Of a stretch of DNA of 64,000 bases, positions 5,551-50,553 are shown in pieces. A program made the position numbers and the translations under genes. The DNA is from Elusimicrobiota bacterium. GTDB taxonomy: Bacteria; Elusimicrobiota; UBA8919. The DNA lies in the NCBI GenBank assembly GCA_041658185.1, contig JBBAAR010000001.1:122400-186399 (forward strand), in the 5' to 3' direction. The first letter of the stretch is position 1, and every line of letters starts with the position of its first letter. The notes below the pieces were generated by a model. The model was not told the DNA's origin. It saw only the letters and a program-made list of their open reading frames with translations, and did no database searches.

Positions 5551-5560
5551 TTTAATACCA

Positions 5561-5680
5561 GTGAGTAAGTGAGTAGGAAGTAGTGTAGTTGCCGAGTTTG
5601 CTCGGCTGTTTGTAGTTGCAGACATTATATCTGCATAAAGCCAACCAAGGTTGGCAACTACTACTCGCTACTTACCTGAA
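5561..5680. repeat. complex 120-bp imperfect palindrome (family F) with nested perfect hairpins
   Basis: Outer arms are gtgagtaagtgagtaggaagtagtgtagttgcc and ggcaactactactcgctacttacc. Inner hairpins are gccgag-tttg-ctcggc and ccaacc-aa-ggttgg. Confidence 0.55.
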
Positions 5681-8050
5681 CATCTTCACCAAAAAATACT
5701 TAAACTTTTCCAAGAACCCGACGGCAAAACTTCCTTTATCCAAAAGTTTACCGGGCAAGCAGTTCAAAAATTGAGACGGTTCAAATTGCTGCGGCTTTCC
5801 GTACCACTTTCTTGTATCCGCATATGTAAGAAACAACCGCTCTTTTGCGCGGGTGAGACCCACATAAAAAAGCCGGCGCTCCTCGTCAAGCCGTTTTTCT
5901 TTTTCTTTTTTTGAGATTTTTTCACCGGAAAAATGTTTTATCGGAATTATATTTTCTTCAAGCCCGATAAAAAATACGGCGTTAAATTCCAGACCTTTGG
6001 CGGCGTGCAGCGACATCACATTGACATAATCATTAACCGTTTTCAGCGCCGACTGCTCGGTTGATTTCCCTCGCATAGATATGCTTTCAATAAACATATC
6101 AATTTTCTCGTATAGGGGAAGATTGCCGCCGCGAACCCGCTCAAAATCAGCCGCTTCCTCCTTTACTGCGAGAGCGAATCTTACCGACTCTTTTCCCTGT
6201 TCCGACTGGAATGCGCTTTTCTGATAATAATCCAGATAACCGCCTTTTTCCAAAATATAACCGATTGCATCGGACAAAGACATCTGAGGATTGCTATCTG
6301 CTATGTCCAAAAAAATCTCAAAAAGTTTTAGGAATTTCTTTTTACTACTTTCGTCTATTAAGCGGCGAAGCATATCTTCAAGAACTTTTCCATCGGTAAA
6401 AAGTTTATACGGATGCAAAATATGCGACATTATCTCGTTTTCAATGGCGGAAAATAAAACCGGCGGCAGATAGTAAAGACGCTTAATATCGCCCTCAATA
6501 GAAGAACCTTCAATAACAATCATCGGCATCGGTTCGGTAAAAATTTTTTCATGCAGTTTAATATAAAAGTCTAACACTTTAATGTATGAGCAAATATCCT
6601 GCACCTCTTTTCTCTGCCAGAAATGCGGATTGTATATTATAAATGGGATTTTTTTGCTTTCTAAAATTTTTTTTGCGACTTTTGATTGCTCGTGTGTGCG
6701 GTATAAAATCGCGAAATCATTCCATCTTAAATGCGAATCTTTTTGTTTTATCCGCTCCATTTCAAACACGCAGAAATTGATTTCATCAGTTTCGTCTTTT
6801 GCTTTATAGACGGTAATCGCATCGCCGAAGTCCAAAGAACCGTCATTTTTTCTTTTAACCGGCTCAATCGTTTTAACGAGATGTTTCGGCTTGGACTTTT
6901 TGAACACCTCGTTTGCAGCGGTGATAATTGTTGCAGTGGAGCGGTAGTTTTTTACAAGTTTGATGTTGGTGCAATTCGGGTAGTCCTTTTCAAAAAATAG
7001 AATGTTTCTGATGTCGGCTCCTCGCCAGGCATAGATTGACTGGTCGTCATCGCCCACGACAAAAAGATTTTGACTCTTGCCTACAAGTTTTTTGCAAAGG
7101 GTGTACTGCGCGTAATTTGTGTCCTGATATTCGTCCACAAGAATAAACTTGAACCGACGCTGATACCATGACAGCACCGTCGGGAATCTGTTAAATAAAT
7201 CCACGACAAGCATCATCATATCGTTGAAATCAATAAGCCCCTGCTGTTTCAAAGTATTCTGATACCTTTCATAAACGGGAACGATTTTCTGTTCTTCTTT
7301 TGTTGCCATTTTTCTTAAATTTTCAACATTAATAAGTTCGTTTTTCCAGTGCTCTATTTTCATTACAACGTCGTCGTATTTCACATTCGGGTCGGTTGCA
7401 AACTCCAAATCAAAGCATGGCTTCAAAACCTTGTATGGGTTTTCTAAAATCTTAAATCCCGCAGGCATACCGATCCTCTCTGCATTAAGCCAAGTCCGTC
7501 CGTCGTCGGTAGGAGATTCTTCCTTTAAGATTTTAAGACAAATTGAGTGAAATGTTCCCACCCACATTTTAGAAATCTGTTCAGAAATTGTCAGGTACTG
7601 TTCTTCCGTCATTCCCTCTTTTACAGAGAGAAAAAATCTTTTGATACGGGCACGCATCTCTTCCGCCGCTTTAACGGTAAATGTAAGTGCAAGTATGTTC
7701 TGCGGATTAACTCCGGATAATATAAGGTAAATAATTCTGTATGTAAGGGCGGTCGTTTTTCCGCTGCCGGCGCAGGCAAAAATAAGGAGCGGGCCGCCGG
7801 TTTTATGATTGTGAAAGACCGCCTCTAACTGCTCCGGATTAAGTTGCTGTGAAATTGTCAGAAGTTGTCCCACGCGGGAAGCCGGCTGTCCCGCCCGCAG
7901 GATTACCGCAGAGAGAGCATCATCCAAAATGCTTTTTTGCTTTTCGTTCAAATCTGAAATCCTCAAGTTATACAACCGGGCAACATCCGGCGGTAAACCC
8001 GCGAGCGGGTCAACTTTATTGAAATTATTTATGGCATCAACCGTGTTCAT
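5672..8050 (-). CDS. UvrD/PcrA-family superfamily-1 DNA helicase
   Basis: Walker A CAGSGKTT, ILALTFTVKAAEEM, VDEYQDTNYAQY, a GDDDQSIY-like motif, and a C-terminal UvrD_C region. Confidence 0.8.
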   Translation of the reverse strand: MNTVDAINNFNKVDPLAGLPPDVARLYNLRISDLNEKQKSILDDALSAVILRAGQPASRVGQLLTISQQLNPEQLEAVFHNHKTGGPLLIFACAGSGKTTALTYRIIYLILSGVNPQNILALTFTVKAAEEMRARIKRFFLSVKEGMTEEQYLTISEQISKMWVGTFHSICLKILKEESPTDDGRTWLNAERIGMPAGFKILENPYKVLKPCFDLEFATDPNVKYDDVVMKIEHWKNELINVENLRKMATKEEQKIVPVYERYQNTLKQQGLIDFNDMMMLVVDLFNRFPTVLSWYQRRFKFILVDEYQDTNYAQYTLCKKLVGKSQNLFVVGDDDQSIYAWRGADIRNILFFEKDYPNCTNIKLVKNYRSTATIITAANEVFKKSKPKHLVKTIEPVKRKNDGSLDFGDAITVYKAKDETDEINFCVFEMERIKQKDSHLRWNDFAILYRTHEQSKVAKKILESKKIPFIIYNPHFWQRKEVQDICSYIKVLDFYIKLHEKIFTEPMPMIVIEGSSIEGDIKRLYYLPPVLFSAIENEIMSHILHPYKLFTDGKVLEDMLRRLIDESSKKKFLKLFEIFLDIADSNPQMSLSDAIGYILEKGGYLDYYQKSAFQSEQGKESVRFALAVKEEAADFERVRGGNLPLYEKIDMFIESISMRGKSTEQSALKTVNDYVNVMSLHAAKGLEFNAVFFIGLEENIIPIKHFSGEKISKKEKEKRLDEERRLFYVGLTRAKERLFLTYADTRKWYGKPQQFEPSQFLNCLPGKLLDKGSFAVGFLEKFKYFLVKMFR

Positions 8051-36378: not shown

Positions 36379-36464
36379 TGCGGGTTTCTTAAAACGACAA
36401 TTTATATTTTTGTGCTTTTTTACTTTTTCCGTTTTTCACTTTACCGTCGGTAGAACAAAACCTA

Positions 36465-36525
36465 TTCAACTGGTTTCGCAACTACGGAAGTAGTTGAATA
36501 CTGACTCAAAAAAAATATAGCGCAA
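36465..36525. repeat. REP-like palindromic element (GTAGTTGAAT family)
   Basis: aacctattcaactggtttcgcaactacggaagtagttgaatactg, with a caactac-GGAA-gtagttg hairpin; just downstream of the 36593..37582 gene. Confidence 0.6.
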
Positions 36526-36592
36526 AGAACCAATCACATTTTTATTATTTTGCTTTTGCCAAAATTAAGTATACCATAAAAATCCAATCTTG

Positions 36593-37582
36593 TCAAGGGT
36601 TTTTTTCGGTTTCAATAATAAATTTTTTACCGTCGGTTCTAACGGTAATGTTCCCGTCTTCATCCGTCCTGTAAATACTTATATCCGCATCCTGCAATTT
36701 TGCGAGAACTCCGGAATACGGATGCCCGAAATTGTTTCTTGCACCGACGGAAATAACAGCAATTTCCGGATTAACCGCTTTTAAGAATTTTCCAGATGTT
36801 GATGTCGCGGAACCGTGGTGGGCAACTTTCAATATATTTGATCTTATTTTGTCACCATAAATTTGGAGTACATTATCCTCCGCTTCATATTCCATATCTG
36901 CCGTAAAAAAGAAACTTACATCTCCATAAATAAGCCGGATTATTACAGAATTGCTGTTTTCTCCCTCAAAATAAAAATCCTTCGGCGGAGCAAAAACTTC
37001 AAACTTTACCGACGGGTCTACGTCAATAACATCTCCCTGCCTGACAACAGCAGTAACTATTTTTTTCTCTTTTATTACGGCGTGCATTCTTTCATTTTCA
37101 GGCGAGTCGGATTCAATGCCGTTTTCGTAAAGAACCGTCACCGGAAATCTTCTTAAAACCGCGGGCATCCCGCCGATGTGGTCGCCGTCGGGATGGCTTG
37201 CAACCACAAAATCAAGTCGCTTCACATTATGGCTTTCCAAAAAAGGAACGACTATTTCTTCGCCGGGTTCTGCCGACGCCGGACTCCAGTAGGGAGTGCC
37301 GCCGGTATCAATTAAACCGTTTTTTCCGTCCGGAGTTTTTATGAAAATCGAGTCGCCCTGACCGACATCAATAAATGTAACAACAAGTTCCGGGACTCGC
37401 GGTTTATATTCATTCGCCGGAACTTCAAGATATACCTTCGGTTTTGGCGGTTCTTTCGGAAGTGTCGTACACCCGGTAAAAAAACAATTGAAAATTGAAA
37501 ATTGAAAATTGAGAATTAAAATCAAACATATACCATAATTCTTAATTCTTAATTTGTAATTCTTAATTGTCTCTATATTCAT
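36593..37582 (-). CDS. standalone ComEC-type MBL-fold hydrolase, lipoprotein
   Basis: FIDVGQGDSIFIKTPDGKNGLIDTGG, ASHPDGDHIGG and KVAHHGSATS motifs. The signal peptide is encoded by repeat E (ILILNFQFSIFNCFFTGC). Confidence 0.7.
   Translation of the reverse strand: MNIETIKNYKLRIKNYGICLILILNFQFSIFNCFFTGCTTLPKEPPKPKVYLEVPANEYKPRVPELVVTFIDVGQGDSIFIKTPDGKNGLIDTGGTPYWSPASAEPGEEIVVPFLESHNVKRLDFVVASHPDGDHIGGMPAVLRRFPVTVLYENGIESDSPENERMHAVIKEKKIVTAVVRQGDVIDVDPSVKFEVFAPPKDFYFEGENSNSVIIRLIYGDVSFFFTADMEYEAEDNVLQIYGDKIRSNILKVAHHGSATSTSGKFLKAVNPEIAVISVGARNNFGHPYSGVLAKLQDADISIYRTDEDGNITVRTDGKKFIIETEKNP
37487..37565. repeat. repeat family E copy
   Basis: aattgaaaattgaaaattgaaaattgagaattaaaat...ataattcttaattcttaatttgtaattcttaattg. 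Confidence 0.65.
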
Positions 37583-38496
37583 TTCTTAAATCCCAGCGAT
37601 TTGACCGTGTATGTTTCGCCGTCGGTTGAAATAAAAATCGTTCCCTCTTTGTCGGTTCTGTGAAGTTCAATATTAAAATCATTAAATCGTCTCACTGTGT
37701 CCGGATGCGGATGTCTGAATCTGTTGTATCTTCCGCAGGAAATAACGGCGATTTCCGGATTGACCGCATCAAGAAAATACTCGGTTGAAGATGTTTTTGA
37801 GCCATGATGCGGAACTTTTAATATAACGGACGAAACTTCCGATTTTTTATAATTGCCTATCAGCTCGTCTTCCGCAATCGCTTCCGCATCGCCGGTGAAT
37901 AAAAAAGATATATCTTTATATGTAATCTTTAACACTATTGAATTATTGTTAGGGTCTTCAAATAAATGGTCTTTCCTCGGCGATAAAACTTTTACGGTTA
38001 AATCCGGGTCCCAGTTAAGAATATCGCCCTGCTGAGCAATCTTATACGATATTTTTTTCAATTTTATTATTTGAAGAAATTTTTCATATATAGGCGAGGA
38101 GTATGAAAATCCGGAATCGTAGACAATACCCACTGGAAACTTTTTCATAACGCTTAGCAGACCGCCGATGTGGTCCGCGTGTGCGTGAGAGGCAACGACA
38201 TAATCAATTGTTGTGATATTTTTTTTGACTAAAAAAGGAATAACTATTTCTTTACCGGCATCAAATTCGTCGTCGCCGACGGCACATTGCCCGGCATCAA
38301 TAAGAATGTTTTTGCCGTTAGGCGTTCTTATAAATGCGCTGTCGCCTTGACCGACATCAAGAAAATATACATACAGATTCTTTGCGGGATGTCCCTGTTG
38401 ACCGTAAAAAACTTGTATATTTAATGCAGTTATTGCAGTGACAAAAAGTAATAAAACTCTTGGTTTTGATAATTTTGATAATAATGTTTTTTTCAT
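37579..38496 (-). CDS. standalone ComEC-type MBL-fold hydrolase, secreted
   Basis: YFLDVGQGDSAFIRTPNGKNILIDAG, ASHAHADHIGG and KVPHHGSKTS motifs, with a signal peptide. A 4-nt overlap with the upstream paralog suggests translational coupling. Confidence 0.7.
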   Translation of the reverse strand: MKKTLLSKLSKPRVLLLFVTAITALNIQVFYGQQGHPAKNLYVYFLDVGQGDSAFIRTPNGKNILIDAGQCAVGDDEFDAGKEIVIPFLVKKNITTIDYVVASHAHADHIGGLLSVMKKFPVGIVYDSGFSYSSPIYEKFLQIIKLKKISYKIAQQGDILNWDPDLTVKVLSPRKDHLFEDPNNNSIVLKITYKDISFLFTGDAEAIAEDELIGNYKKSEVSSVILKVPHHGSKTSSTEYFLDAVNPEIAVISCGRYNRFRHPHPDTVRRFNDFNIELHRTDKEGTIFISTDGETYTVKSLGFKK

Positions 38497-38505
38497 TTAT
38501 AGTCG

Positions 38506-38605
38506 GTAAAACAAAACCTATTCAACTACTTTCGTCCCTAAAGGGATTTCCTTCGGTCACAACTACGAAACTACGGAAGTAGTTGAGTGCTTATTAAAAA
38601 AATTA
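38506..38605. repeat. REP-like palindromic element (GTAGTTGAAT family, with CCCTAAAGGGA and CTTCGGTC submotifs)
   Basis: aacctattcaactactttcgtccctaaagggatttccttcggtcacaactacgaaactacggaagtagttgagtgc. Confidence 0.65.
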
Positions 38606-39532
38606 AAATCTCACGCCGATGCTTGCCTTATTTGAATAACCCAAATCTCCGGCATTTGAAAACGCATAATCAAATATAAAATCCTGTTTCTGGCTATAGA
38701 CAATACCGAAACCGAATGTTAAAGGTTCAATACCCGTTAAATCATCCCGGAAAAGTTTATAGCCAAGTCGTAACACAAAAATTTCTGATAACATATACTC
38801 AAAACCTATGCCTGCCGTCATATCGGATATAAACGGATAATCCACTTCGGTATTTACCGTCACTTTTTCTTCAAACAATTTCAAAGAAAAACCTGCCTTT
38901 AATTTTTTAGGCAAATCAGATTTATCTCCGGGTCCCATACTCCCGCCGAGATTCAAAAGAGAAATACCGAAATTCAAAGGCATATCATTTATCTGGGTCA
39001 TATACAAACCGCCAAGGTCCGCGGCAAAACCCGTCCCGGATTCCGAATCAATTTTTTCAGATAAATATTTTAGCGAAACGCCCAACGAAATATTCTGAAA
39101 AAATTCGGCACCGTAACCGACATTTAAACCGATGTCCTTCACGTCATAACTTCCGGCTTCCTCTTTCGTCTCTTCTCTTTTTGTAATGCTTCCCGAATTG
39201 AGATACATAATTCCCACGCCCAAACTTCCTGTTTGGCCAAACGGCATCGCATAACTCAAACTTCCGACCTTTATATCCTGTATCCATGAATTATAAGAAG
39301 CCAGCAATTCATTCCATGTTACGAGTGATAAACCCGCGGGATTCCAGAAAATTGCCGATGAATCATTTGCAATTGCCACATAAGTTTCACCGAGCGAGGA
39401 AGGACGGGTGCCATATGAAAGTTTAAGAAATTCAGCGGAAGTTGTACCTGCCGGTTTCGCGTATAAAATGTAAAACTGTCCTATAAATATCAACTGATAT
39501 AAAATTATTTTAATAAATTTTCTATATTTCAT
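38603..39532 (-). CDS. FadL/PorV-like outer-membrane beta-barrel protein
   Basis: TSAEFLKLSYGTRPSSLGETYVAIANDSSAIFWNPAGLS motif; C-terminal ...SIGVRF. Confidence 0.6.
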   Translation of the reverse strand: MKYRKFIKIILYQLIFIGQFYILYAKPAGTTSAEFLKLSYGTRPSSLGETYVAIANDSSAIFWNPAGLSLVTWNELLASYNSWIQDIKVGSLSYAMPFGQTGSLGVGIMYLNSGSITKREETKEEAGSYDVKDIGLNVGYGAEFFQNISLGVSLKYLSEKIDSESGTGFAADLGGLYMTQINDMPLNFGISLLNLGGSMGPGDKSDLPKKLKAGFSLKLFEEKVTVNTEVDYPFISDMTAGIGFEYMLSEIFVLRLGYKLFRDDLTGIEPLTFGFGIVYSQKQDFIFDYAFSNAGDLGYSNKASIGVRF

Positions 39533-39544
39533 TTTTTCTATTTT

Positions 39545-39652
39545 GTATCAGTAAAACAAACCCTGAAGGGACTCCCTTCGGTCGCTACTTTCGTCCCTAA
39601 AGGGATTTCCTTCGGTCACAACTACGAAACTACGAAAGTAGTTGAATGGTTA
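39545..39652. repeat. REP-like palindromic element (same family)
   Basis: aaaccctgaagggactcccttcggtcgctactttcgtccctaaagggatttccttcggtcacaactacgaaactacgaaagtagttgaatgg. Confidence 0.65.
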
Positions 39653-39985
39653 TTTCTCAATTCTTTGATTATGTTTTTCTACCGCTAAAAAATACGGCTT
39701 AAGAACTTTCAATAAATCAACCGGCATTCTTCTTTCCCGTTTTGTATCTATTATTGAATAATAAATCCGGTTTTTTTCCCGCCTGTATTTTACTATATGT
39801 GCATTTTTTAATACGGTTAGATGTCTTGAAACAAGCGGCAAATTTACCCGCAATTCATAAACAATTTCAGAAACACTTGCCTCTTTTTTCTTGTACAGAA
39901 ACTTCAAAATTTTCAAACGAACAACGGAGCCCAATGTAGTAAATAATCTTGCATAATTCAAAGCATTCCTGTCAACCGTTATCAT
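39650..39985 (-). CDS. ArsR/SmtB-family winged-helix transcriptional regulator
   Basis: LKILKFLYKKKEASVSEIVYELRVNLPLVSRHLTVLKNAHIV has the HTH pattern of ArsR-type regulators. A 4-nt overlap with the upstream nuclease gene. Confidence 0.6.
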   Translation of the reverse strand: MITVDRNALNYARLFTTLGSVVRLKILKFLYKKKEASVSEIVYELRVNLPLVSRHLTVLKNAHIVKYRREKNRIYYSIIDTKRERRMPVDLLKVLKPYFLAVEKHNQRIEK

Positions 39986-41430
39986 TTTTCCCCCTTTATA
40001 ACCGCGAACTTTTCAATCGCAAAAAATGTTTTATCGGAGGTGGCCGCCTCAATTTTTAATATGTACAGACCGCTTGCAACTTTTTCACCGTCATCATTAT
40101 CACAATTCCACAAAACCTCATTATAAACACCGGGAGTTACTACCGGTGTAATTTCTCTTGCAATTTCTCCGGAAAGAGTATAGATTTTTACCGTTACCGA
40201 CGTTACATCCGAAGAAATTTCAAAACCGATTGCAGTTCTATTTTTTGCAGGCGACGGATAAACAACAACTTTATCAACCGCTTTTTTTGACGGGGTGGAA
40301 ATTGGCCCGACATTTTTGTAAATTCTCTGAAATTCCTCGTAGTACTCTTTTGCAATTCCAGTTGAATAAATTACAAGCGTATTTTCATCATTAAGTGTAT
40401 TGGCACTGTTGGACCAGTTGTGAGAACCGGTTATAACCTTTGCATTCGTAGTAAAAGGGTCAATCACTCCGAATTTGTGGTGAAGATTATAATTTATGTT
40501 GCTGGCATCGGCATTATAGGTAACATACGCGCCGGTCGAGCGAAGTTTTGCATATGTGGACTGGCTGTCGGTTTGCGTAATGTCAAAAATACCGTAGACT
40601 TCCACCCCTTGTTTCATAACATCAACAAGCGAATCGTATATTTGTGAATCATCGGAATTGGTTGTAAAACTGAACAGACAAAAACTAACTTTTTCTTTGG
40701 CACCCTGAATACTTTTTGTTCCTCCTGTTCCTTTTATTTCATTTGCAATTACTTTATTCGTTCCGCCTGTAACGGGAGTACTATATGGCGAAAAATAAAT
40801 TTTGACCTTAACACCGTTGACATATTCCGTTTTCCCGTTGTTTGATGTATTAATTACGTTAACCGCTTTTGAAGAACCAAAATGAGAAAAACCCGTTCTT
40901 AACGGCGTCCCATACATTTCAACAAATTCATTTTTGTAAATTTCAGCAACGGCAGTTGAACGAATTACAACAACATTATTATTATTTTGATATGTGTCAT
41001 TATTCGTAGGATTCCACGAACCCGTCCAGACAGACGAACCCTCAATTACACAAAATTTGTTATGAACTTGACTGCCCGATGAAGTGCGTATCTTATAAGA
41101 TGTTGTAATACTACTGGTAAATATGCTTGCATTTGTTGCATCGGCATCGCAAATAAAATAAACGGTACAGCCGCGATTTAATGCGGAATTCAAAGCGGCA
41201 ATTGCCGTTGAATTATCTATATCATAAAAAGCAGCATAAATTATTTTATTGTTTACCGAAGCCAGATAGTTTTTGAAACGGAAATCAAGTCCCGGACTGT
41301 TTGCATCGCTGGTACCGGTCGGTTTATTAAAATAGACCTCAAAACCAGGCGGGATTTCACAAAAAAGATTGGTGAAAGGAAAAAAGTAAAAGATAATAAG
41401 TAGAAAAATACTTAAAAATTTAATTTTCAT
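39982..41430 (-). CDS. secreted phospholipase-D-family (two HKD motifs) nuclease-like protein with T9SS-type C-terminal sorting domain
   Basis: HKD motif 1 is HNKFCVIEGSSVWTGSWNPTNN; HKD motif 2 is HHKFGVIDPFTTNAKVITGSHNWSNSA. Signal peptide present; C-terminus ...SGLYILKIEAATSDKTF. Confidence 0.6.
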   Translation of the reverse strand: MKIKFLSIFLLIIFYFFPFTNLFCEIPPGFEVYFNKPTGTSDANSPGLDFRFKNYLASVNNKIIYAAFYDIDNSTAIAALNSALNRGCTVYFICDADATNASIFTSSITTSYKIRTSSGSQVHNKFCVIEGSSVWTGSWNPTNNDTYQNNNNVVVIRSTAVAEIYKNEFVEMYGTPLRTGFSHFGSSKAVNVINTSNNGKTEYVNGVKVKIYFSPYSTPVTGGTNKVIANEIKGTGGTKSIQGAKEKVSFCLFSFTTNSDDSQIYDSLVDVMKQGVEVYGIFDITQTDSQSTYAKLRSTGAYVTYNADASNINYNLHHKFGVIDPFTTNAKVITGSHNWSNSANTLNDENTLVIYSTGIAKEYYEEFQRIYKNVGPISTPSKKAVDKVVVYPSPAKNRTAIGFEISSDVTSVTVKIYTLSGEIAREITPVVTPGVYNEVLWNCDNDDGEKVASGLYILKIEAATSDKTFFAIEKFAVIKGEK

Positions 41431-41454
41431 TTTGATACCTTTCCAACTATAATT

Positions 41455-41530
41455 TCAAAACTACTTTCGTACTTTCGCAACTACGAAAGTAGCGACCGTA
41501 GGGAGTCCCTTTAGGGATTGAATACCTTTT
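41455..41530. repeat. REP-like palindromic element (same family, inverted orientation)
   Basis: aaaactactttcgtactttcgcaactacgaaagtagcgaccgtagggagtccctttagggattgaatacc. Confidence 0.55.
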
Positions 41531-41538
41531 TAAAAAAA

Positions 41539-41772
41539 TTATTTTTTGTTTGAGCGACTTAACAATTCTTGCTGCAATTTTTTCACCCTATCAAGCGATT
41601 TTGACTCTGCTTTTTTGTTCGGATTAAACTCAACATCAAGCCACATGCCTTCATGCAATTTGAACTTAAACTGTTTTACCGGAATTATCATTTCGCCGCC
41701 GCCTACTATTAAAACGGCTGTTTTTCCGTCTTCTATCCTATCTATTACCGCCCGCATAAAATCCTCCGGCAA
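41539..41772 (-). CDS. small hypothetical protein (DUF3006-like)
   Basis: 77-aa ORF; AVIDRIEDGKTAVLIVGGGEM resembles the DUF3006 pattern. The match is weak. Confidence 0.3.
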   Translation of the reverse strand: MPEDFMRAVIDRIEDGKTAVLIVGGGEMIIPVKQFKFKLHEGMWLDVEFNPNKKAESKSLDRVKKLQQELLSRSNKK

Positions 41773-41787
41773 TATTTTTAAATACGA

Positions 41788-42975
41788 TTATCTGTTGCTA
41801 AATATTTGCTTGGCGTATCCGCGATAAAATGCAGAACGCTCTTCTTCGTTCGGTATTTCCTTCCTCGGAATAATTACTGCATTCTCGTTTTTTGGCACAT
41901 CAAATGACTGCTCAACAAAAAGTTTCACTATAGCGGCTGGGACCGAATAAAGCACATCAAATTTGTCTTGCTGTTTTTTACCGTTTGTAATCTCTTCCGT
42001 CCTTGTTAAAGTTCTCTGAAAATTATTTTTTATAAGTTCTATTATTTTTGCAACATTCGGCGACAATAGTGTAATGTCAATTTTGTCTACGGGAGTTGCC
42101 CAAAGATTTATGGACTTCAACTCTTTCAATTCGGCAGGGGATAATTTTACGGGTGGTTCAAAATATACAAGTTTGATTTTATACGGAATTCCCAAATATA
42201 ACGGGTCGGAATTTTCCATAGTTATCGGCGAACGATATTCCATATCTGTATTGACACCGTTATAGAAAACACTATATCCATTGTTGAGATAGCTGTCAGT
42301 CAGTTGATTAACCGACCACCAGGCAAGACAACTTTCCCAAGAACTGAAACAGGGTCCGAATTCCTTAAAAAGAAGATACCGCACATTATCGCAGGAAATA
42401 TTTATTACATTTGAAAGTTCTCTGTAAAAAGTTGATTTTCCTCCTCCGGCAGCACCTATCGGAATTATTAGAACGGGACCTTTACTGATAAGCGTTTTTT
42501 CATCCCAGTTGGAGTTATTTTTCAGAGAATATTTGATGAAATTCTCTATGTGTTTTTTCCCTTCTTCATACAATTTTGCCAAATCAAAACCGGTTATCTG
42601 TGCTTCAATAATTGCAAGGAAAGTGTTTATTATGCTATATGGATTAAGATGAAAACAATTAGAAAAATCTTTCATCCGTAAAATCGCTTCTTCAAAATCC
42701 GGCTTGTTTTTTATTAGAAAAATTCCTTTCTGAGAATTTACGGCAAAAATGGGAGAGTTGTAAAGATTTTTGGCCAGGCGCAAATTTTCAAGAATATCAC
42801 CGGAAGTAAGCGAAGCGTCAATTATATTATGAAGACATATATAAACATCTTTTTCATACAGGAGGGAGTTGTCGTTTTCAACAACATCTAATAACTTTTT
42901 AAGACCGTATCTATCGGCAACTTTTTTCAATAAATTCCTGGTTTCACTGTGTCTCTTAAATTCTCTTTTTTCCAT
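41788..42975 (-). CDS. P-loop NTPase/kinase-family protein with N-terminal domain of unknown function
   Basis: Walker A box IIPIGAAGGGKST in the C-terminal half. No close family is recognisable by eye. Confidence 0.4.
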   Translation of the reverse strand: MEKREFKRHSETRNLLKKVADRYGLKKLLDVVENDNSLLYEKDVYICLHNIIDASLTSGDILENLRLAKNLYNSPIFAVNSQKGIFLIKNKPDFEEAILRMKDFSNCFHLNPYSIINTFLAIIEAQITGFDLAKLYEEGKKHIENFIKYSLKNNSNWDEKTLISKGPVLIIPIGAAGGGKSTFYRELSNVINISCDNVRYLLFKEFGPCFSSWESCLAWWSVNQLTDSYLNNGYSVFYNGVNTDMEYRSPITMENSDPLYLGIPYKIKLVYFEPPVKLSPAELKELKSINLWATPVDKIDITLLSPNVAKIIELIKNNFQRTLTRTEEITNGKKQQDKFDVLYSVPAAIVKLFVEQSFDVPKNENAVIIPRKEIPNEEERSAFYRGYAKQIFSNR

Positions 42976-43149
42976 TTAATCTCCCCCCAATCTTTATATT
43001 AAAATTTATTTTCAAGCGAACGAGCGAAAAGTAAACTTATTTGTTTTTCGAGCGACCGCAAGAAGTCCCTTCAGGGGCGAGCGCTGAAAACAAAGGGTTT
43101 AATACCCTTTATAAAAAACCAAAAATCAATAAAATCAAAAATTACAATT

Positions 43150-43215
43150 ACCGATGATAAAACCCTAAACTACTTTCGTAGTTGCGTAGTTGCGAAAGTA
43201 GTTGAATAGTTTTTA
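43150..43215. repeat. REP-like palindromic element (same family)
   Basis: aaaccctaaactactttcgtagttgcgtagttgcgaaagtagttgaatag. Upstream, at 43040-43120, are the additional palindromes cccttcagggg and aaagggtttaataccctttat. Confidence 0.6.
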
Positions 43216-43221
43216 AAAAAA

Positions 43222-44256
43222 TTATTCCCCTATTTTCAGCGCATTGATTTCTGTTTTAAATATCTTGTTCAACTCCGCCTTATTTTTGTCCGGAATAAAC
43301 AGGGCATTAATCCCATTATGTATTATTTTTATCAAATCGGATACATCAAAACCAAGACGGTTAACCGCCACATTATATTCATTTGTAAGGTCAATTCCGC
43401 TAACCGATCTATCATCGGTATTTATAGTAACTATTACGCCGTTATCATAAAATTTTTTTATAGGATGGCTTTCAAAATCAGCGACAACATGCGTTTGAAT
43501 ATTTGATGTAATACACATTTCAAGCGGGATTTCTTTTTCTTTTATTTCTTCCATAAGATTTGTGTCATCTATTAAATGTACGCCGTGACCTATGCGGCTT
43601 GCCCCAAGTTCCACTGCTTCTCTTATACTTTCGGCACCGGCTGATTCACCAGCATGCACGGTAAAAGGAATTTTATATTTTTTAGCAAGGACAAACGGCT
43701 CGGCGAAATCCCTTGTCGGATATCTTGTTTCATCACCCGCCAAATCCAGCGCAACAATACCGTAATCTGCGTATTTTTTTGCCAATTCTACCGTTGTGAT
43801 ATTCGCTTCTTCAGGATTTGAACGATAACAGCATAAAATCAAGCCGACGCCAATTTTGAAATCACGGCTGCCTTGACGTAATCCGTCAAGGCAAATTTTT
43901 ACGACATCGGTTATCTTAAAATTTTCGGATGCCTGAAGAAACGGTGCAAAACGCACTTCAAGATATTTAATGTTTTCAGAAGCGGCATCTTCACAAAGTT
44001 CATAACCGATTTTTTCCACAGCGTACGGAGTTTGCAAGAGCGGGTAAAAAAATTCAAACGCCTGCAAAAAATCGGTTAAACTCCGGCAATCAGGGGATAC
44101 CTGAACATACTTATTCAATTCTTCAACATTTTCCGTCGGCAGTTTTACCTTTTGCTTTTTGGCAAGTTCTAAAATGGTTGATGTCCGAACGGAACCGTCC
44201 AAATGACAATGCAGTTCAACTTTCGGAATTTTTTTAAGAACTTCTGTTGATACCAT
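43222..44256 (-). CDS. add: adenosine deaminase
   Basis: LHCHLDGSVR N-terminal signature, HAGESAG, and a C-terminal INTDD-type motif (VTINTDDRS). Confidence 0.85.
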   Translation of the reverse strand: MVSTEVLKKIPKVELHCHLDGSVRTSTILELAKKQKVKLPTENVEELNKYVQVSPDCRSLTDFLQAFEFFYPLLQTPYAVEKIGYELCEDAASENIKYLEVRFAPFLQASENFKITDVVKICLDGLRQGSRDFKIGVGLILCCYRSNPEEANITTVELAKKYADYGIVALDLAGDETRYPTRDFAEPFVLAKKYKIPFTVHAGESAGAESIREAVELGASRIGHGVHLIDDTNLMEEIKEKEIPLEMCITSNIQTHVVADFESHPIKKFYDNGVIVTINTDDRSVSGIDLTNEYNVAVNRLGFDVSDLIKIIHNGINALFIPDKNKAELNKIFKTEINALKIGE

Positions 44257-44258
44257 TA

Positions 44259-44942
44259 TTATTCCTCGTCATCCGGCTCGGGCAAAGCCTCTTCCGTTTT
44301 TGGAGATTTTTTCTTTTTTATCGTCTCTTTTTTATCTTTCGTTTCAACCTTTTGACCTTTCAATTTAGCAATTTTTTCTTTTGCATTTTCTGCTTTTTTG
44401 GAATCAGGGAAGTTATTTATAACTTTCTGATATTCCTCTATCGCCCTTTTATTATTTTTTATTTTTTCATAGCAATCACCTAACTCAAACTGTGCATTAG
44501 CCGCTTTTTTTGAATCAGGATATTTATCTATGACGGTCTGGTATGTTTTAATCGCACTCTCATATTTCTTCTGTTTTTTCTGGTAAATACCGCCAATCTG
44601 CAAAATTGCATCAACTGCTTTTTTTCTTTCCGGAAATTTATCTATCACCAGTTGGAACTCCTTAATTGCAACATCATAATCTTTCATTTTTGAATAACAG
44701 GTCCCTATATTATACTGCGCATCAGACGATTCTTTCGCTTCGGGATATTTTTTCAAAAAATTCTGATATGTTTTTATGGCTTCCGAATACTGCTTTTCTT
44801 TCTGCATCGCTTTTGCTTTCTGAAACAAATCATCTGTTTCGCAAAACAAAATGCCGCAGGAAAAAATTGCCAATACCAACCCTGCCAAATACTTTTTTCC
44901 GCACAAAGCGGATTTCACTTCGCTCAACACCGCGTTCAACAT
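44259..44942 (-). CDS. tetratricopeptide-repeat lipoprotein (YbgF-like TPR), Lys-rich C-terminal tail
   Basis: Signal peptide plus Cys, four or five TPR-like repeats (AQYNIGTCYSKMKDYDVAIKEFQ...), and a KKKKSPK tail. Confidence 0.55.
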   Translation of the reverse strand: MLNAVLSEVKSALCGKKYLAGLVLAIFSCGILFCETDDLFQKAKAMQKEKQYSEAIKTYQNFLKKYPEAKESSDAQYNIGTCYSKMKDYDVAIKEFQLVIDKFPERKKAVDAILQIGGIYQKKQKKYESAIKTYQTVIDKYPDSKKAANAQFELGDCYEKIKNNKRAIEEYQKVINNFPDSKKAENAKEKIAKLKGQKVETKDKKETIKKKKSPKTEEALPEPDDEE

Positions 44943-44944
44943 TT

Positions 44945-45592
44945 TTACCTCCCGTCCCGCTTCAGCGAGATCACTTTTTTTATTTCAAACATGATTTTTT
45001 CTATCTTGGGAATAAGATGGTCTATGCCCGGAGCATCGGTATCTATAACGAGGACCGGTATTTTTGATTTTTTCAATAACTCGTCTTTATCATCGTGAAG
45101 ATATGTTTTTTCCATTTCCTCCCGGGAAACCAGATGGTCGTCGGTACCCTTGGCAAGAGCTGCCTTATGCCTTGCAACATTTCTCTCCCAACAGGTCTCA
45201 AATGAACAATCGGAATAAATAATTATTGCATTGTCCAGGATTTTTTCTGAAAAATTTTTCATCGACGCCGCATAATTCGGACGGGAAAACTCTATGAAAA
45301 CAACGCGTTCATCTTTTTGCAACCCGCGAACATCCTTATCAACCTGCCGTAAAATTTCATCCCAAATACTATTATCGGTTACTAAATATCCGCCGTCGGG
45401 CGTTTTGCGGCATCTTTTCCATTTGCCTGTTTTTTCATCTTCCTGAAAAATATTCCACAACTTCGGAAAATCGTCAACTCTTAAAAAATCGTTGCAGATT
45501 TTTTCCTGACTTAATTTAGCGGTTATCCGGCGAAAGATTTCCGATTTGCCGCAGCCCGGCCGACCTAAAAGAAAAACATTTAAACAATTCAT
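44945..45592 (-). CDS. P-loop kinase-like ATP-binding protein (paralog of 48814..49446)
   Basis: Walker A FLLGRPGCGKS at the N-terminus; about 210 aa; its start overlaps the stop of the downstream TIM-barrel gene. Confidence 0.5.
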   Translation of the reverse strand: MNCLNVFLLGRPGCGKSEIFRRITAKLSQEKICNDFLRVDDFPKLWNIFQEDEKTGKWKRCRKTPDGGYLVTDNSIWDEILRQVDKDVRGLQKDERVVFIEFSRPNYAASMKNFSEKILDNAIIIYSDCSFETCWERNVARHKAALAKGTDDHLVSREEMEKTYLHDDKDELLKKSKIPVLVIDTDAPGIDHLIPKIEKIMFEIKKVISLKRDGR

Positions 45593-46560
45593 TAACCCAT
45601 AACCTCCCTTACATATTCCGCTTCCTTTTCCATTAACTCCCTTGTATTTAATAGTTCGTCAACTTCTCTCACCGCCGTTTCCATCACGACAATCTCAACT
45701 TTTTTGTGTCTAAAAATCTCAAAAAGTTTTTTAAGATTTTCTTTTTTGAGAAGGCCCGCCTGATAATGCAAAGGCGGATGAAATTTTTTAACCACGGGTA
45801 TATAATCGTTAAGATGGACCTGAGAGATATATTTATCGGGGATAGTCTCCATTATTTGCTCCGGCGGATTGGGGACTTGCTTGCCAAAATCTGCCCGAGT
45901 GAACCAGTGACCTATATCAAAACAGAATTTTACATTTTTTCCTTTCGGATCTATCATCTCAAGAATTTCAAGACATTCTTCAACATCAACCAGAATTGAA
46001 TCAAATGCGGTATTATTCTCAAGATGAAACATTATTCCCTTTTTTTGTGCGTACGGCACAAGTTCTTTGAGAGAGCGGATAAGGTTTTCTCTGACCAGTT
46101 TCCTGTAAAGTCCGACTGCCTGATAAAAAGGAACGGAACCGGGGTGCATAACGACATTTATACAGTTCAATTTCGCGGCAAAATCAATATATCTCTTTAA
46201 TAAATCAACCGCCATCTCACGGTCCTCTTTCTGAAATGCGCAGACGGCACTGCCGATATATGTGTACGGAAGATGGAAAGAAAGCGTGATATTTCTTTTT
46301 TCTGCTTCTTTTTTTGCTTTGGAAATTTCGGATGACGGCATTTGAAGATACGGATTTGGAATTCCTCCGTCCAACTCAACATGGTCAAGTGAAACCTCCG
46401 ACGCAACCTTAACCTGGTTAATAATATCCTTTTTGGCTTTATCCTGCACTTTGGCATCCATATCGGCGACTGTAAGCGTACCGGCTTTCAACTGCTTTTT
46501 TTCGGCTTCTGTTAAAAACGATGTGTTCAACAAATTTGTGAAATCTCTTCCTATTCTCAT
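45592..46560 (-). CDS. xylose-isomerase-like TIM-barrel protein of the endonuclease IV (AP endonuclease family 2) type
   Basis: Motifs in Nfo-like order: LSFHLPYTYIGS, VVMHPGS, MFHLENN, FCFDIGHWF, VHLNDY. Confidence 0.5.
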   Translation of the reverse strand: MRIGRDFTNLLNTSFLTEAEKKQLKAGTLTVADMDAKVQDKAKKDIINQVKVASEVSLDHVELDGGIPNPYLQMPSSEISKAKKEAEKRNITLSFHLPYTYIGSAVCAFQKEDREMAVDLLKRYIDFAAKLNCINVVMHPGSVPFYQAVGLYRKLVRENLIRSLKELVPYAQKKGIMFHLENNTAFDSILVDVEECLEILEMIDPKGKNVKFCFDIGHWFTRADFGKQVPNPPEQIMETIPDKYISQVHLNDYIPVVKKFHPPLHYQAGLLKKENLKKLFEIFRHKKVEIVVMETAVREVDELLNTRELMEKEAEYVREVMG

Positions 46561-46624
46561 AATACCTCCGTTAATTTTTTTCTGGATTTATTAAATCCGG
46601 CAATCGGCAAAAACCATGTTTCTG

Positions 46625-46690
46625 ACGGTAAAATCAATTCTATTCAACTACTTTCGTAGTTGCGAAACTAGTTGAATACCTTAAAAAAAT
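46625..46690. repeat. REP-like palindromic element (same family)
   Basis: tctattcaactactttcgtagttgcgaaactagttgaatacc, with competing caactac/gtagttg and tattcaact/agttgaata stems. Confidence 0.65.
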
Positions 46691-47547
46691 CAAATGTATT
46701 TTTCAACCAATAATTCAAGTTTTTTCTTTGTTTTCGGATTTATCGCTTTTGGGGACGTCATTATAGCATATTTTAGCGCATCTTTGCAAGAACAATTTCT
46801 TTCGCCCTGTAATTTTACAATAACACTCTTCACAAGTTTTTTTACATTTGTCGTTAAAACTTTCATATTCGCCATAACCTTTTCCGCCGAGACCTCTTCG
46901 CCCTCTTTCCAGACATCGTAATCGGTCGCCAAAGAAACGGTAGCAAAACATATTTCGGCTTCACGGGCAAGTTTTGCCTCGGGCAAATTTGTCATCCCTA
47001 TAACTAAAAAACCGAGCGAGCGATAAACTTTTGATTCCGCTTTCGTAGAAAATTGAGGTCCCTCAATACAAACATAGGTGCCGCCGTCATGAACTGGAAG
47101 GGCAAGCGATTTCGCCGTTTCAATTAAAATTTTTCTTAACTGCGGGCAATACGGTTCGGCAAAACCTACATGCGCAACAATACCATCGCCGAAAAATGTA
47201 GAAGGTCTTGATTTTGTCCTGTCAAAAAGTTGGTCGGGAATAACAAAATCCCTCGGTTTTATTTCTTCTCTCAGCGAACCGCAGGCGGAAATGGATATAA
47301 TTTTTTCAACTCCGATTTTTTTAAGAGCAAAAATGTTGGCCCGCGAGTTCACTTCCGACGGCATAATTTTGTGTCCCACGGCATGACGCGGAAGAAACGC
47401 AACTTTCACGCCTTCAAGTTCGCCGATACGAATTTTATCGGACGGCAAACCGAAAGGAGTTTTTATTTCCAGCTCTTTCAGTATTTTTATTCCTTCAATT
47501 TCGTAGACACCGCTTCCGCCGATAATTGCGATTTTTACTTCATTCAT
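46690..47547 (-). CDS. mtnP: S-methyl-5'-thioadenosine phosphorylase / purine nucleoside phosphorylase
   Basis: VKIAIIGGSGVYE, LPRHAVGHKIMPSEVNSRANIFALKKIGVEKIISISACGSLREEIKPRDFVIPDQ: strong match to the MTAP/PNP family. Confidence 0.8.
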   Translation of the reverse strand: MNEVKIAIIGGSGVYEIEGIKILKELEIKTPFGLPSDKIRIGELEGVKVAFLPRHAVGHKIMPSEVNSRANIFALKKIGVEKIISISACGSLREEIKPRDFVIPDQLFDRTKSRPSTFFGDGIVAHVGFAEPYCPQLRKILIETAKSLALPVHDGGTYVCIEGPQFSTKAESKVYRSLGFLVIGMTNLPEAKLAREAEICFATVSLATDYDVWKEGEEVSAEKVMANMKVLTTNVKKLVKSVIVKLQGERNCSCKDALKYAIMTSPKAINPKTKKKLELLVEKYI

Positions 47548-50542: not shown

Positions 50543-50553
50543 TATATTATATT

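What the first reader, a model, noticed from the sequence alone, without database searches (positions are those of the whole stretch)
36465..46690. Family of REP-like intergenic palindromes built around CAACTAC-GNRA/UUCG-GTAGTTG hairpins
At least six copies lie immediately 3' of minus-strand genes: 36465-36525, 38506-38605, 39545-39652, 41455-41530, 43150-43215 and 46625-46690. They share TATTCAAC...GTAGTTGAATA outer arms, perfect 7-bp inner stems closed by GAAA, GGAA or TTTC loops, and accessory palindromes (CCCTAAAGGGA, CTTCGGTC). Several copies allow two mutually exclusive foldings. On the minus-strand transcript the U-run precedes the hairpin rather than following it, so they are not canonical terminators. 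They may be REP or MITE-like elements, mRNA-stabilising 3' structures, or sRNA genes.
Basis: seen in the sequence. Interest (0 to 1): 0.5.

Follow-up and report, generated by a model that had tools for sequence, protein, structure and literature searches.

The report
REP-like intergenic palindrome family in Elusimicrobia
Six copies of a short, sequence-invariant palindromic repeat sit between co-directional genes of an uncultured groundwater Elusimicrobia genome; they resemble the REP/BIME repeats of other bacteria and probably act as leaky transcript-punctuating hairpins, which makes them a new variant of a known kind and not a new kind of RNA.

Summary
A covariance model finds exactly six copies in the window, all oriented with the minus-strand genes and all in true intergenic gaps. 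The host is an uncultured Elusimicrobia lineage. Three relatives at about 90% protein identity carry the family at the same intergenic sites, a 60% relative has none, and further copies occur at what I judge to be about 20 or more other sites in groundwater metagenomes.

On the sense strand each copy reads: stop codon, T7-9, short spacer, (T)ATTCAAC-TACTTTCG, loop, CGAAAGTA-GTTGAATA, then a U-rich tract ending in TTTTACCGTCGG.

Across 33 distinct copies the stem never covaries. It stays invariant although four-fold sites differ by 22-29%. Variation consists of 8-nt unit gain or loss, inversion of the loop, and gain or loss of GTAG-tagged accessory hairpins. Sense and antisense folds are equally stable.

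This argues against a structure-selected RNA and for REP/BIME-like mosaic DNA palindromes. They are co-transcribed and probably act as leaky terminators or stabilising hairpins. No RAYT gene was found, and Rfam has no match. Integron attC, MITE and promoter readings were rejected. Interest is modest.

The parts
36441..36515 (-). Element 1 (A-type). On the sense strand: T8 (36508-36515), spacer, TATTCAAC (36493-36500 on +), local hairpin CAACTAC-TTCC-GTAGTTG, 3' arm GTTGAATA (36463-36470 on +), then GGTTTTGTTCTACCGACGG including CCGWCGG at 36444-36450. The long stem is weakened by two substitutions (CGAAACCAG). It lies about 55-70 nt downstream of a strong sigma-70-like promoter, in the leader of the 2290-aa gene.
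   Evidence: (CM E = 3.8e-7)
38497..38602 (-). Element 2 (A-type with an inserted N module). TAA stop at 38603-38605, then T7 (38596-38602), CACTCAAC-TACTTCCG, GTAGTTTCGTAGTTG, N module GTGACCGAAGGAAATCCCTTTAGGGA, CGAAAGTAGTTGAATA, and GGTTTTGTTTTACCGACTATAA. The start codon of the next gene follows directly (38494-38496).
   Evidence: (E = 1.7e-11)
39548..39649 (-). Element 3. It starts 2 nt after the TAA stop of the ArsR-like gene and has no T-run. Order: CATTCAAC-TACTTTCG-TAGTTTCG-TAGTTG, N module, CGAAAGTAG, M module (GTAG-CGACC-GAAGGGAGTCCCTTC-AGGG), then GTTTGTTTTACTGA.
   Evidence: (E = 3.4e-7)
41440..41538 (-). Element 4 (B-type with a 5' M module). TAA stop at 41539-41541, then T7 (41532-41538), AAAAAGG-TATTCAA, M module in reverse (TCCCTAAAGGGACTCCCTACGGTCGCTAC), TTTCG-TAGTTG-CGAAAGTA-CGAAAGTAGTT, and TTGAAATTATAGTTGG. 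The next start codon lies 14 nt further on.
   Evidence: E = 5.9e-8; z = -3.0
43150..43221 (-). Element 5 (B-type basic form). TAA stop at 43222-43224, then T7 (43215-43221), AAAAAC, TATTCAAC-TACTTTCG, loop CAACTACG-CAACTA, CGAAAGTAGTT, and TAGGGTTTTATCATCGGT.
   Evidence: E = 1.2e-18; z = -3.3
46622..46689 (-). Element 6 (A-type basic form). TGA stop at 46690-46692, then T7 (46683-46689), AAGG, a 16-bp stem TATTCAACTAGTTTCG / CGAAAGTAGTTGAATA with loop CAACTA, and GAATTGATTTTACCGTCAG.
   Evidence: E = 8e-11; z = -4.3
43020..43130 (-). An insertion of about 105-116 nt in the spacer downstream of element 5, absent from all three relatives. It carries an M-like module (CCCTGAAGGGACTTCTTGCGGTCGCTCG), repeated CGCTCG/GGTCGCT motifs and the hairpin AAAGGGTATTAAACCCTTT. 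It shows that the accessory modules come and go on their own.
5560..5690 (-). A related composite cluster outside the finding. GTAGTTG/CAACTAC tags flank three different small hairpins (GTAGTTG-CCAACC-TT-GGTTGG; GCAGA..TCTGC-AACTAC; GCCGAG-CAAA-CTCGGC-AACTAC), enclosed by GTAG-rich arms. This is the layout of a GTAG tag next to a short stem-loop.

Best explanation
The six elements belong to a lineage-specific family of REP/BIME-like mosaic palindromic DNA repeats in an uncultured groundwater Elusimicrobia clade.

Shown:
- The basic unit is a palindrome, TATTCAAC-TACTTTCG / CGAAAGTA-GTTGAATA, built from degenerate 8-nt units. The inner 11 bp are present in every copy.
- An A/T-rich spacer (usually T7-9) precedes the unit directly behind the upstream stop codon. 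A U-rich tract ending in TTTTACCGTCGG follows it.
- The element changes by gain or loss of 8-nt units, by inversion of the CG-flanked loop unit (CAACTA to TAGTTG and back), and by gain or loss of GTAG-tagged accessory hairpins (M/N modules).
- The core sequence stays invariant across paralogous and orthologous copies.

Inferred:
- The sequence is kept by a sequence-specific process, either recognition by a protein such as a RAYT-like HUH nuclease or gene conversion. It is not kept by selection for an RNA fold.
- The repeats are co-transcribed with the flanking genes. On the mRNA the stem begins about 11-15 nt behind the stop codon, at the edge of the terminating ribosome, and a U-rich tract follows it directly.
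- They therefore most likely work as leaky intrinsic terminators (attenuators) and as exonuclease-blocking hairpins that punctuate a run of co-directional operons.
- At least three of the six must be read through, because the next start codon follows within 6-25 nt.
For: - Census and orientation. There are six CM hits and nothing else in 84 kb of the source contig. Copies sit at the same intergenic sites in three Elusimicrobia MAGs at 89-92% protein identity, and none is present in a 60% relative with the same gene order. I count 52 distinct copies from metagenomes and relatives.
- Placement. Most copies lie 13-17 nt (a few 3-4 nt) after the stop of a co-directional gene. Distance to the next start varies from 0 to about 250 nt. 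This is the pattern reported for uni-REPs (PMC3733652).
- T7 after the stop. In the window this occurs only at the four gene ends that carry an element.
- Sequence constraint. Four-fold sites are 71-78% identical between the lineages. Yet 11 of 16 stem pairs never vary in 33 distinct copies. There are no compensatory or one-sided changes, and the only departures are mismatches.
- Strand symmetry. The mean sense-minus-antisense folding energy is 0.0 kcal/mol over 51 copies. The sign follows the loop orientation.
- Loop inversion and module gain or loss at orthologous sites.
- GTAG-tagged accessory modules and a GTAGTTG-tagged cluster.
- U-rich tail. It follows the stem end in both subtypes, and the 8-nt indel keeps it adjacent. 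The A-type sense tail has 6.6 T in 12 nt against 3.5 on the antisense.
- Contigs of an independent assembly break inside the repeats.
Against: - No RAYT or IS200-type transposase was found in the 0.93 Mb held. Pfam finds no transposase in the window or its flanks.
- GTAG is base-paired inside the core stem. It is not the unpaired terminal tag that defines the published REP superfamily.
- Copy number looks modest: none in the other 74 kb of the contig.
- Several non-orthologous copies lie in 5' leaders just downstream of good sigma-70 promoters or in divergent regions. This is odd for a terminator and the opposite of the usual REP bias.
- The stems are A/U-rich. The generic terminator scan called only element 5, on the + strand, and the M hairpin of element 3.
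- Three window copies do not fold better than shuffles.
- The orientation bias of 40:5 relative to the downstream gene cannot be separated from a replication-strand bias. The minus strand is the G-rich leading-strand sequence.
- No transcript data exist.
Confidence: 0.5

Rival explanations
1. The elements are operator sites of a sequence-specific DNA-binding protein. The invariant 6-4-6 palindrome AACTAC-N4-GTAGTT would be bound by a dimeric regulator, for instance the ArsR/SmtB-family protein encoded inside the cluster (39650-39985). The rest of the element would be neutral slippage around the site.
For: - Half-sites are invariant while the 4-nt centre varies (TTTC, TTCC, GAAA, GCAA, AAAA). 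There is no covariation, and the site is strand-symmetric.
- As far as I inspected, each copy keeps at least one full 6-4-6 palindrome.
- Three non-orthologous copies lie just downstream of sigma-70 promoters.
- The ArsR-like gene sits in the middle of the cluster. It is missing from L006, the relative that also lacks the family.
- Copy number seems modest.
Against: - The conserved sequence extends well beyond a 16-bp operator (TATTCAAC, TTTCG/CGAAA, T7, TTTTACCGTCGG).
- Extra half-sites repeat every 8 bp, which is off the helical phase.
- Most copies abut stop codons inside operons, with no recognisable promoter.
- GTAG-tagged modules insert between the arms.
- The protein's solved relatives (CzrA, SmtB, PagR; E about 1e-7) bind 12-2-12 repeats with a TGAA..TTCA core (own knowledge), not this motif.
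- The co-occurrence rests on a single comparison.
Confidence: 0.12
2. The elements are ordinary intrinsic terminators, partly bidirectional. They share sequence only because they arose by local duplication. No mobility or dedicated protein is involved.
For: - Each has a hairpin followed by a U-rich tract on the gene strand. An A-tract lies 5' of the stem in B-type copies. They sit immediately after stop codons, and orientation follows transcription in 40 of 45 cases.
Against: - Terminator stems normally drift and covary. Here the sequence is invariant across about 20 or more unlinked sites (my estimate) and four lineages.
- Elements 2-4 leave no room for a promoter before the next gene, so they cannot terminate efficiently.
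- Some copies lie in 5' leaders behind promoters.
- The convergent gene pair at 57749/57766 and most other gene ends have no such hairpin.
- Accessory modules insert independently, including into the 3' end of a coding sequence in L003.
Confidence: 0.15
3. The elements are protein-controlled RNA attenuators. The repeated CAACUAC / UAGUUG 8-nt units would be binding sites for an RNA-binding protein, in the manner of HutP or TRAP. The protein would choose between the 5'-local hairpin (read-through) and the long stem next to the U-tract (termination).
For: - Mutually exclusive folds exist in most copies.
- UAG/CUAC motifs repeat with an 8-nt period.
- Copies lie in leaders behind promoters and directly in front of start codons.
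Against: - There is no strand asymmetry. Loop units occur in both orientations at orthologous sites, which would swap the RNA motif for its complement.
- No covariation.
- 10 of 33 copies have a C.A mismatch in the sense-strand long stem. It would be G.U on the antisense strand.
- No candidate RNA-binding protein was identified.
Confidence: 0.1
4. The elements are integron attC sites (a cassette array or CALIN) or miniature transposons (MITEs).
For: - The outer arms ATTCAAC / GTTGAAT fit the attC R''/R' consensus RYYYAAC / GTTRRRY (consensus from own knowledge).
- The elements follow co-oriented genes one after another.
- The arms look like terminal inverted repeats.
Against: - B-type copies lack the R' arm.
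- The basic form is a perfect palindrome of 38-46 bp. It has no extrahelical bases or unpaired spacer and is shorter than attC sites.
- The loop flips, so there is no strand asymmetry.
- The 'cassettes' hold up to four housekeeping genes. Their order is conserved in L006 without any element.
- No integrase was found in the window or in the roughly 20 kb of extra contig sequence held (11 kb beyond one end, 9 kb beyond the other).
- Some copies lie in divergent promoter regions.
- No target-site duplication flanks any copy.
Confidence: 0.03

Closest known systems
REP / BIME repeats, in particular the GTAG-tagged REP superfamily (Di Nocera, De Gregorio and Rocco 2013, PMC3733652; E. coli REP/BIME, Pseudomonas REP, Stenotrophomonas SMAG)
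   Same: - Short extragenic palindromes, dispersed and lineage-specific.
- They lie tight against the 3' end of the upstream ORF, at variable distance from the downstream ORF.
- They form mosaic clusters with variable loops.
- GTAG motifs are present. The M module (GTAG-CGACC-GAAGGG-AGT-CCCTTC) and the 5.6-kb cluster (GTAGTTG next to 6-7 bp stems with a TT loop) match the published layout.
- They are co-transcribed with the flanking genes.
   Different: - In the core hairpin GTAG is paired with CTAC, not an unpaired terminal tag.
- The stems are A/T-rich and up to 16 bp long.
- The element is built from 8-nt units that expand, contract and invert.
- Conserved T7 and TTTTACCGTCGG flanks give it a fixed polarity.
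- There are no G.T or compensatory stem variants.
- Copy number appears low.
- No RAYT gene was found.
REPIN-RAYT systems (REP doublets mobilised by Y1 HUH transposases)
   Same: A sequence-invariant hairpin-forming repeat whose conservation is better explained by recognition than by structure. Its orientation is consistent with action on the lagging-strand template.
   Different: No RAYT gene is known for this lineage. The elements are single hairpins, not doublets of two self-palindromic REPs.
Intrinsic terminators made of a shared repeat, for example inverted DNA-uptake-sequence pairs in Neisseria and Haemophilus (own knowledge)
   Same: One repeated sequence forms the hairpins behind many genes, and a U-rich tract follows. 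The 3' flank carries a genome-wide over-represented motif (CCGWCGG).
   Different: The over-represented heptamer lies outside the stem and is itself palindromic. Many copies must be read through, and some lie in 5' leaders.
Modular repeats processed on mRNA: pneumococcal BOX elements (A-Bn-C) and neisserial Correia elements (own knowledge)
   Same: Conserved end modules enclose a variable number of internal modules. The element is transcribed with its neighbours and can form long hairpins.
   Different: These elements are much shorter, there is no target duplication, and the internal unit is 8 nt long as against about 45 nt.
Integron attC sites (for example Vibrio cholerae repeats)
   Same: The outer arms fit RYYYAAC/GTTRRRY, and the elements follow co-oriented genes.
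   Different: See the membership test: there are no L boxes or extrahelical bases, no integrase, and the genes are not cassettes.

Membership tests
REP (GTAG-tagged superfamily, PMC3733652) | Small (20-40 bp) palindromic unit that can form a stem-loop, with a stem of 5-13 bp | tested here: met
   The basic form is 38-46 bp. The inner stem is 11 bp and the full stem 16 bp. The M module has a 6-bp stem and a 3-nt loop.
REP (GTAG-tagged superfamily, PMC3733652) | Unpaired GTAG (or CGTC) tag at one end of the stem-loop | tested here: inconclusive
   In the core hairpin GTAG is paired with CTAC, so the feature is not met there. It is met for the M/N modules and for the GTAGTTG-tagged hairpins at 5560-5690. 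A CGTC lies in the 3' flank ACCGTCGG, but that is part of a genome-wide heptamer.
REP (GTAG-tagged superfamily, PMC3733652) | Many dispersed extragenic copies per genome | tested here: inconclusive
   All copies are extragenic. There are 52 distinct copies in the sequence held, at what I judge to be about 20 or more non-orthologous sites. However, there are only six in 84 kb of the source contig, all within 10 kb. No complete genome was available.
REP (GTAG-tagged superfamily, PMC3733652) | Between unidirectional genes: close to the 3' end of the upstream ORF, at variable distance from the downstream ORF | tested here: met
   Most copies lie 13-17 nt (a few 3-4 nt) from the upstream stop and 0 to about 250 nt from the next start (paper section read).
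REP (GTAG-tagged superfamily, PMC3733652) | Stem sub-families with complementary changes and G.T pairs | tested here: not met
   0 of 16 pairs show a change on both sides or on one side in 33 distinct copies.
REPIN-RAYT system | A RAYT (Y1 HUH transposase) gene in the genome, flanked by the repeats | tested here: inconclusive
No Y1_Tnp domain appears in the Pfam tables. Whole genomes could not be searched.
Intrinsic (Rho-independent) terminator | Stable stem-loop directly followed by a U-tract on the transcribed strand | tested here: inconclusive
   A U-rich tract follows the stem end in both subtypes. But the stems are A/U-rich and the tail starts with GG or is interrupted. The consensus scan called only element 5, on the + strand, and the M hairpin of element 3.
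Intrinsic (Rho-independent) terminator | Located at the end of a transcription unit | tested here: not met
   Elements 2, 3 and 4 end 6-25 nt before the next start codon, with no promoter in between. Element 1 and two other site types lie downstream of promoters.
Integron attC site | R''/R' boxes RYYYAAC ... GTTRRRY | tested here: inconclusive
   Met in A-type copies (ATTCAAC ... GTTGAAT). The R' box is absent from the 20 B-type copies of alignment A3.
Integron attC site | Imperfect palindrome with an unpaired spacer and strand-specific extrahelical bases; length about 57-141 bp | tested here: not met
   The stem is a perfect 16 bp, the basic element is 38-46 bp, and the loop occurs in both orientations.
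Integron attC site | Integron integrase and attI nearby; genes are mobile cassettes | tested here: not met
   No integrase in the window or in the roughly 20 kb of extra contig sequence held (11 kb beyond one end, 9 kb beyond the other). The same gene order is found in L006 without the elements.
MITE | Terminal inverted repeats plus a target-site duplication | tested here: not met
   The flanks are T7A5 on one side and a T-rich tract plus ACCGTCGG on the other. No direct repeat flanks any copy.
Any Rfam family | Match to a curated covariance model | tested here: not met
   No hit at gathering thresholds in the whole window. The permissive search of 36300-46800 gave only two chance-level hits, at E = 0.17 and 0.51.

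The most novel reading that the evidence does not exclude
The elements are heritable 'accordion' attenuators. Inversion of the CG-flanked loop unit (CAACTA to TAGTTG and back) and gain or loss of 8-nt units switch the transcript between two folds. One is a 5'-local hairpin that traps the stem and allows read-through. The other is a long or 3'-local stem next to the U-tract that terminates. Template-switch mutations in a quasi-palindrome would then tune, lineage by lineage or even within populations, how much transcription passes from one operon to the next.
Probability: 0.08. Interest if true: 0.7.

Novelty: new variant of a known kind. Interest (0 to 1): 0.3.

Why it matters
I found no description of a REP-type repeat in Elusimicrobia; a full-text search for the phylum name together with 'repetitive extragenic' returned nothing. 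If the reading holds, the phylum gains such a family, and one with an unusually legible mode of change: 8-nt unit slippage, loop inversion and module shuffling at orthologous sites, on a core that stays invariant.

That makes it a compact case for asking how such palindromes are kept uniform without a visible transposase. It also allows a test of whether their fold variants change read-through between operons.

On the practical side, the repeats break short-read assemblies of these genomes.

In itself this is an incremental finding. It does not open a long-standing question.

Tried and rejected
- Rfam, at gathering and at permissive thresholds: nothing.
- Covariation with RNAalifold and explicit pair counting: none.
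- Sense-versus-antisense stability as a sign of RNA-level selection: no bias for this family, mean 0.0 over 51 copies. The window's other hairpin families show a strong sense bias.
- RAYT or IS200 transposase search in all DNA held: negative, low power.
- Integron attC, CALIN and MITE: rejected (see the membership test).
- Promoter readings:
  - T7A5 resembles an UP element, but no core promoter follows at the right distance.
  - TTGAAT-17-CTATAA in element 2 would put the transcription start inside the ORF.
  - An ECF-type AAC...CGTC reading fails on spacing.
- A -1 frameshift signal (U7, 6-nt spacer, hairpin): rejected, because the run lies after the stop codon.
- DNA uptake sequence: some copies read ACCGTCTGAA, 9 of the 10 bases of the neisserial DUS. 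But the over-represented unit is the palindromic heptamer CCGWCGG with no extended consensus.
- sRNA: only element 1 has an upstream promoter, and its Rfam hit (RnaG, 26 bits against a threshold of 153) is noise.

Full report
**Observation.**
AACTAC-N4-GTAGTT occurs five times against none in shuffles. CTAC-N4-GTAG occurs at six sites, one per element and nowhere else in 64 kb. A covariance model built later from 33 copies finds exactly these six places (E = 1e-18 to 4e-7), always with a better score on the minus strand. The next hit has E = 0.06. All six lie in real gaps between minus-strand ORFs and carry stop codons in all frames. Rfam has no match. One part of the description is wrong: on the gene strand a U-rich tract also follows the hairpin.

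**Source and relatives.**
The window is part of a 197.6-kb metagenome contig. With the adenosine deaminase gene as probe, three Elusimicrobia MAGs at 89-92% protein identity and one at 60% were recovered.
- The three close relatives carry the family at the same intergenic sites. The 60% relative has the same gene order but no element.
About half are true members, from groundwater samples.
- In all I count 52 distinct copies, at what I judge to be about 20 or more non-orthologous sites.
- The family is therefore not confined to this region. Even so, within 84 kb of the source contig all six copies lie in one 10-kb stretch.

**Anatomy on the gene strand.**
- The order is: stop codon; T7-9; a 5-7 nt spacer, often AAAAC(C); (T)ATTCAAC-TACTTTCG; loop; CGAAAGTA-GTTGAATA; GGTTTnnTTTTACCGTCGG.
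- There are two subtypes. A-type has the full 16-bp stem. B-type lacks 8 nt of the 3' arm, so the U-rich tract abuts the 11-bp inner stem. In both subtypes a U-rich tail starts at the stem end.
- The whole element is phased in degenerate 8-nt units. Loops are one to three units of CAACTACG or of its complement.
- Some copies carry accessory hairpins. These M and N modules have the form GTAG-CGACCG-AAGGGAGTCCCTT-AGGG.
- In the window, T7 directly behind a stop codon occurs only at the four gene ends that carry an element.

**How it changes.**
Four-fold degenerate sites are only 71-78% identical between the lineages. The stems are nonetheless invariant.
- In 33 distinct copies 11 of 16 pairs never vary and no pair shows a one-sided or compensatory change. 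The only departures are mismatches, chiefly C.A in the sense strand in 10 copies.
- Orthologous sites differ by unit number, by exact inversion of the CG-flanked loop unit, and by presence or absence of the M/N modules.
- An M-like module is inserted in the spacer after element 5 in the window only. Another interrupts the 3' end of a coding sequence in L003.
- Sense and antisense folds are equally stable on average, and the sign follows the loop orientation.
- Together this points to a DNA palindrome kept uniform by a sequence-specific process. It does not point to an RNA selected for its fold.

**Context and function.**
- Most copies lie 13-17 nt (a few 3-4 nt) behind the stop of a co-directional gene. 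Distance to the next start is 0 to about 250 nt. This is the pattern published for REPs between unidirectional genes.
- Orientation follows the downstream gene in 40 of 45 cases. However, the genes are co-oriented with replication, so the two possible biases cannot be separated.
- Elements 2-4 end 6-25 nt before the next start codon, so they must be read through.
- Element 1 lies downstream of a strong promoter. Two other site types lie behind good sigma-70 promoters in divergent regions.
- A stem that starts at the edge of the terminating ribosome, followed by a U-rich tract, yet obligatorily read through, fits a leaky terminator or a protective hairpin inside polycistronic transcripts. This step is inference; no transcript data exist.

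**Comparison with known kinds.**
The closest kind is REP/BIME, specifically the GTAG-tagged superfamily.
- Shared features are size, extragenic position, proximity to stop codons, mosaic build and GTAG motifs.
- The M module and a GTAGTTG-tagged cluster at 5560-5690 match the published layout.
- Differences: GTAG is paired in the core hairpin, there are no compensatory stem variants, the element has an 8-nt unit architecture with polar flanks, and no RAYT gene was found (low power).
- I therefore say it works like a REP and do not file it as a proven member.

**Rivals.**
- An operator for the ArsR-like regulator encoded inside the cluster is the most serious rival. It explains invariant half-sites with a variable centre. 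In addition, the regulator gene is absent from the relative that lacks the family. It does not explain the long conserved arms, the 8-bp phasing, the T7 run or the positions behind stop codons.
- Plain terminators, protein-controlled attenuators, attC sites and MITEs are weighed in the corresponding fields.

**Beyond the finding.**
- The window's other hairpin families are of a different nature. They overlap the 5' ends of genes for secreted and outer-membrane proteins. The purine-rich arm covers the leader and the charged n-region, and the pyrimidine-rich arm encodes the hydrophobic core of the signal peptide. The sense RNA is far more stable than the antisense.
- Two 23S_rRNA_IVP genes sit in the loops of such hairpins.
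- The palindromic heptamer CCGWCGG is about eight-fold over-represented throughout this lineage.

**Verdict.**
The family is a new variant of a known kind, and interest is about 0.3.

Noticed in passing
window minus strand: 3490-3590, 9000-9135, 14300-14444, 16270-16333, 17535-17670, 20470-20625, 22560-22735, 24288-24332, 29325-29510, 37478-37582: Several other families of long hairpins are built of tandem 7-10 nt units (GTGAAnnnnn, AGGTTAAAGG, AGAGGAC/AGAGCAT, GAAAATT). They overlap the starts of genes for secreted or outer-membrane proteins. The purine-rich arm is the leader and the charged n-region. The pyrimidine-rich arm encodes the hydrophobic core of the signal peptide (for example MVIDTVNYSEKKWKDSERKWNFVHFCSLLFTFVHFCSLSL). 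The 10-nt units are read in three frames, and one 11-nt unit keeps TGA out of frame. The sense RNA is up to 30 kcal/mol more stable than the antisense, with 11-14 G.U pairs. This suggests an mRNA hairpin that encloses the ribosome-binding site.
   Followed up: partly
window 24332-24700 (-) and about 18900-19256 (-): Two 23S_rRNA_IVP (PF05635, four-helix-bundle) genes (E = 2e-41 and 3e-23) lie inside the loops of such hairpins. Each sits between the purine arm and the signal-peptide arm of the next gene (arms 24681-24725/24288-24332 and 19257-19299/18863-18905). The second has no stop codon and runs in frame into the signal-peptide core of a FadL-like outer-membrane protein. The layout recalls ORF-bearing intervening sequences in 23S rRNA helices.
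   Followed up: partly
whole window (47 sites, for example 36444-36450); also L003-L006, L008, L020, L040, L064, L073, L126, L128: The palindromic heptamer CCGWCGG occurs 47 times against 6.1 +/- 2.5 expected, about once per 1.4 kb and mostly inside genes, with no extended consensus. It is 5-12 times over-represented in most of the related Elusimicrobia loci tested (about 4-fold in two), and not consistently in the three unrelated loci (0 to about 3-fold, on counts of 0-2). This is reminiscent of the highly iterated palindromes of cyanobacteria. The 3' flank of the elements often carries one.
   Followed up: partly
window 36568-36596 (-): A strong sigma-70-like promoter (TTGACA-17-TATACT with an extended TG) lies directly behind the stop of the upstream gene and about 55-70 nt before element 1. 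It either drives a long leader for the 2290-aa surface-protein gene or a short RNA that ends at the element.
   Followed up: no
window 39650-39985 (-); L006 14071: An ArsR/SmtB-family regulator gene sits inside the element cluster. It is absent from the corresponding position in the 60% relative, which also lacks the repeat family.
   Followed up: partly
window 60440-60590 (-) and 43020-43130 (-): Further intergenic mosaics are built around repeated GGTCGCT / CGCTCG motifs and small hairpins. They are related to the linker of the M module.
   Followed up: no
window 12860-12950, 13275-13362, 27795-27870 (-): Non-coding leader hairpins made of GAGAATTA 8-mers. Each ends in CTCTGGTGTTAnnATG just before a start codon.
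   Followed up: no
L002, L127, L129 (Logan assembly SRR8449812 of the same strain): Contigs of this independent assembly end inside element 5, inside the GGTCGCT repeat and inside the GTAGTTG cluster. This is the behaviour expected of multi-copy repeats.
   Followed up: yes
window 1-29500 and 50515-52746; L128: The neighbourhood is dense in DNA-uptake and pilus genes: two ComEC-like proteins, ComEA-like HHH_3 proteins, a Tad/T2SS ATPase, T2SSF, a secretin, PDDEXK/Cas4 and UvrD. Type IX secretion components are also present (PorP, PorV, CHU_C cargo).
   Followed up: no
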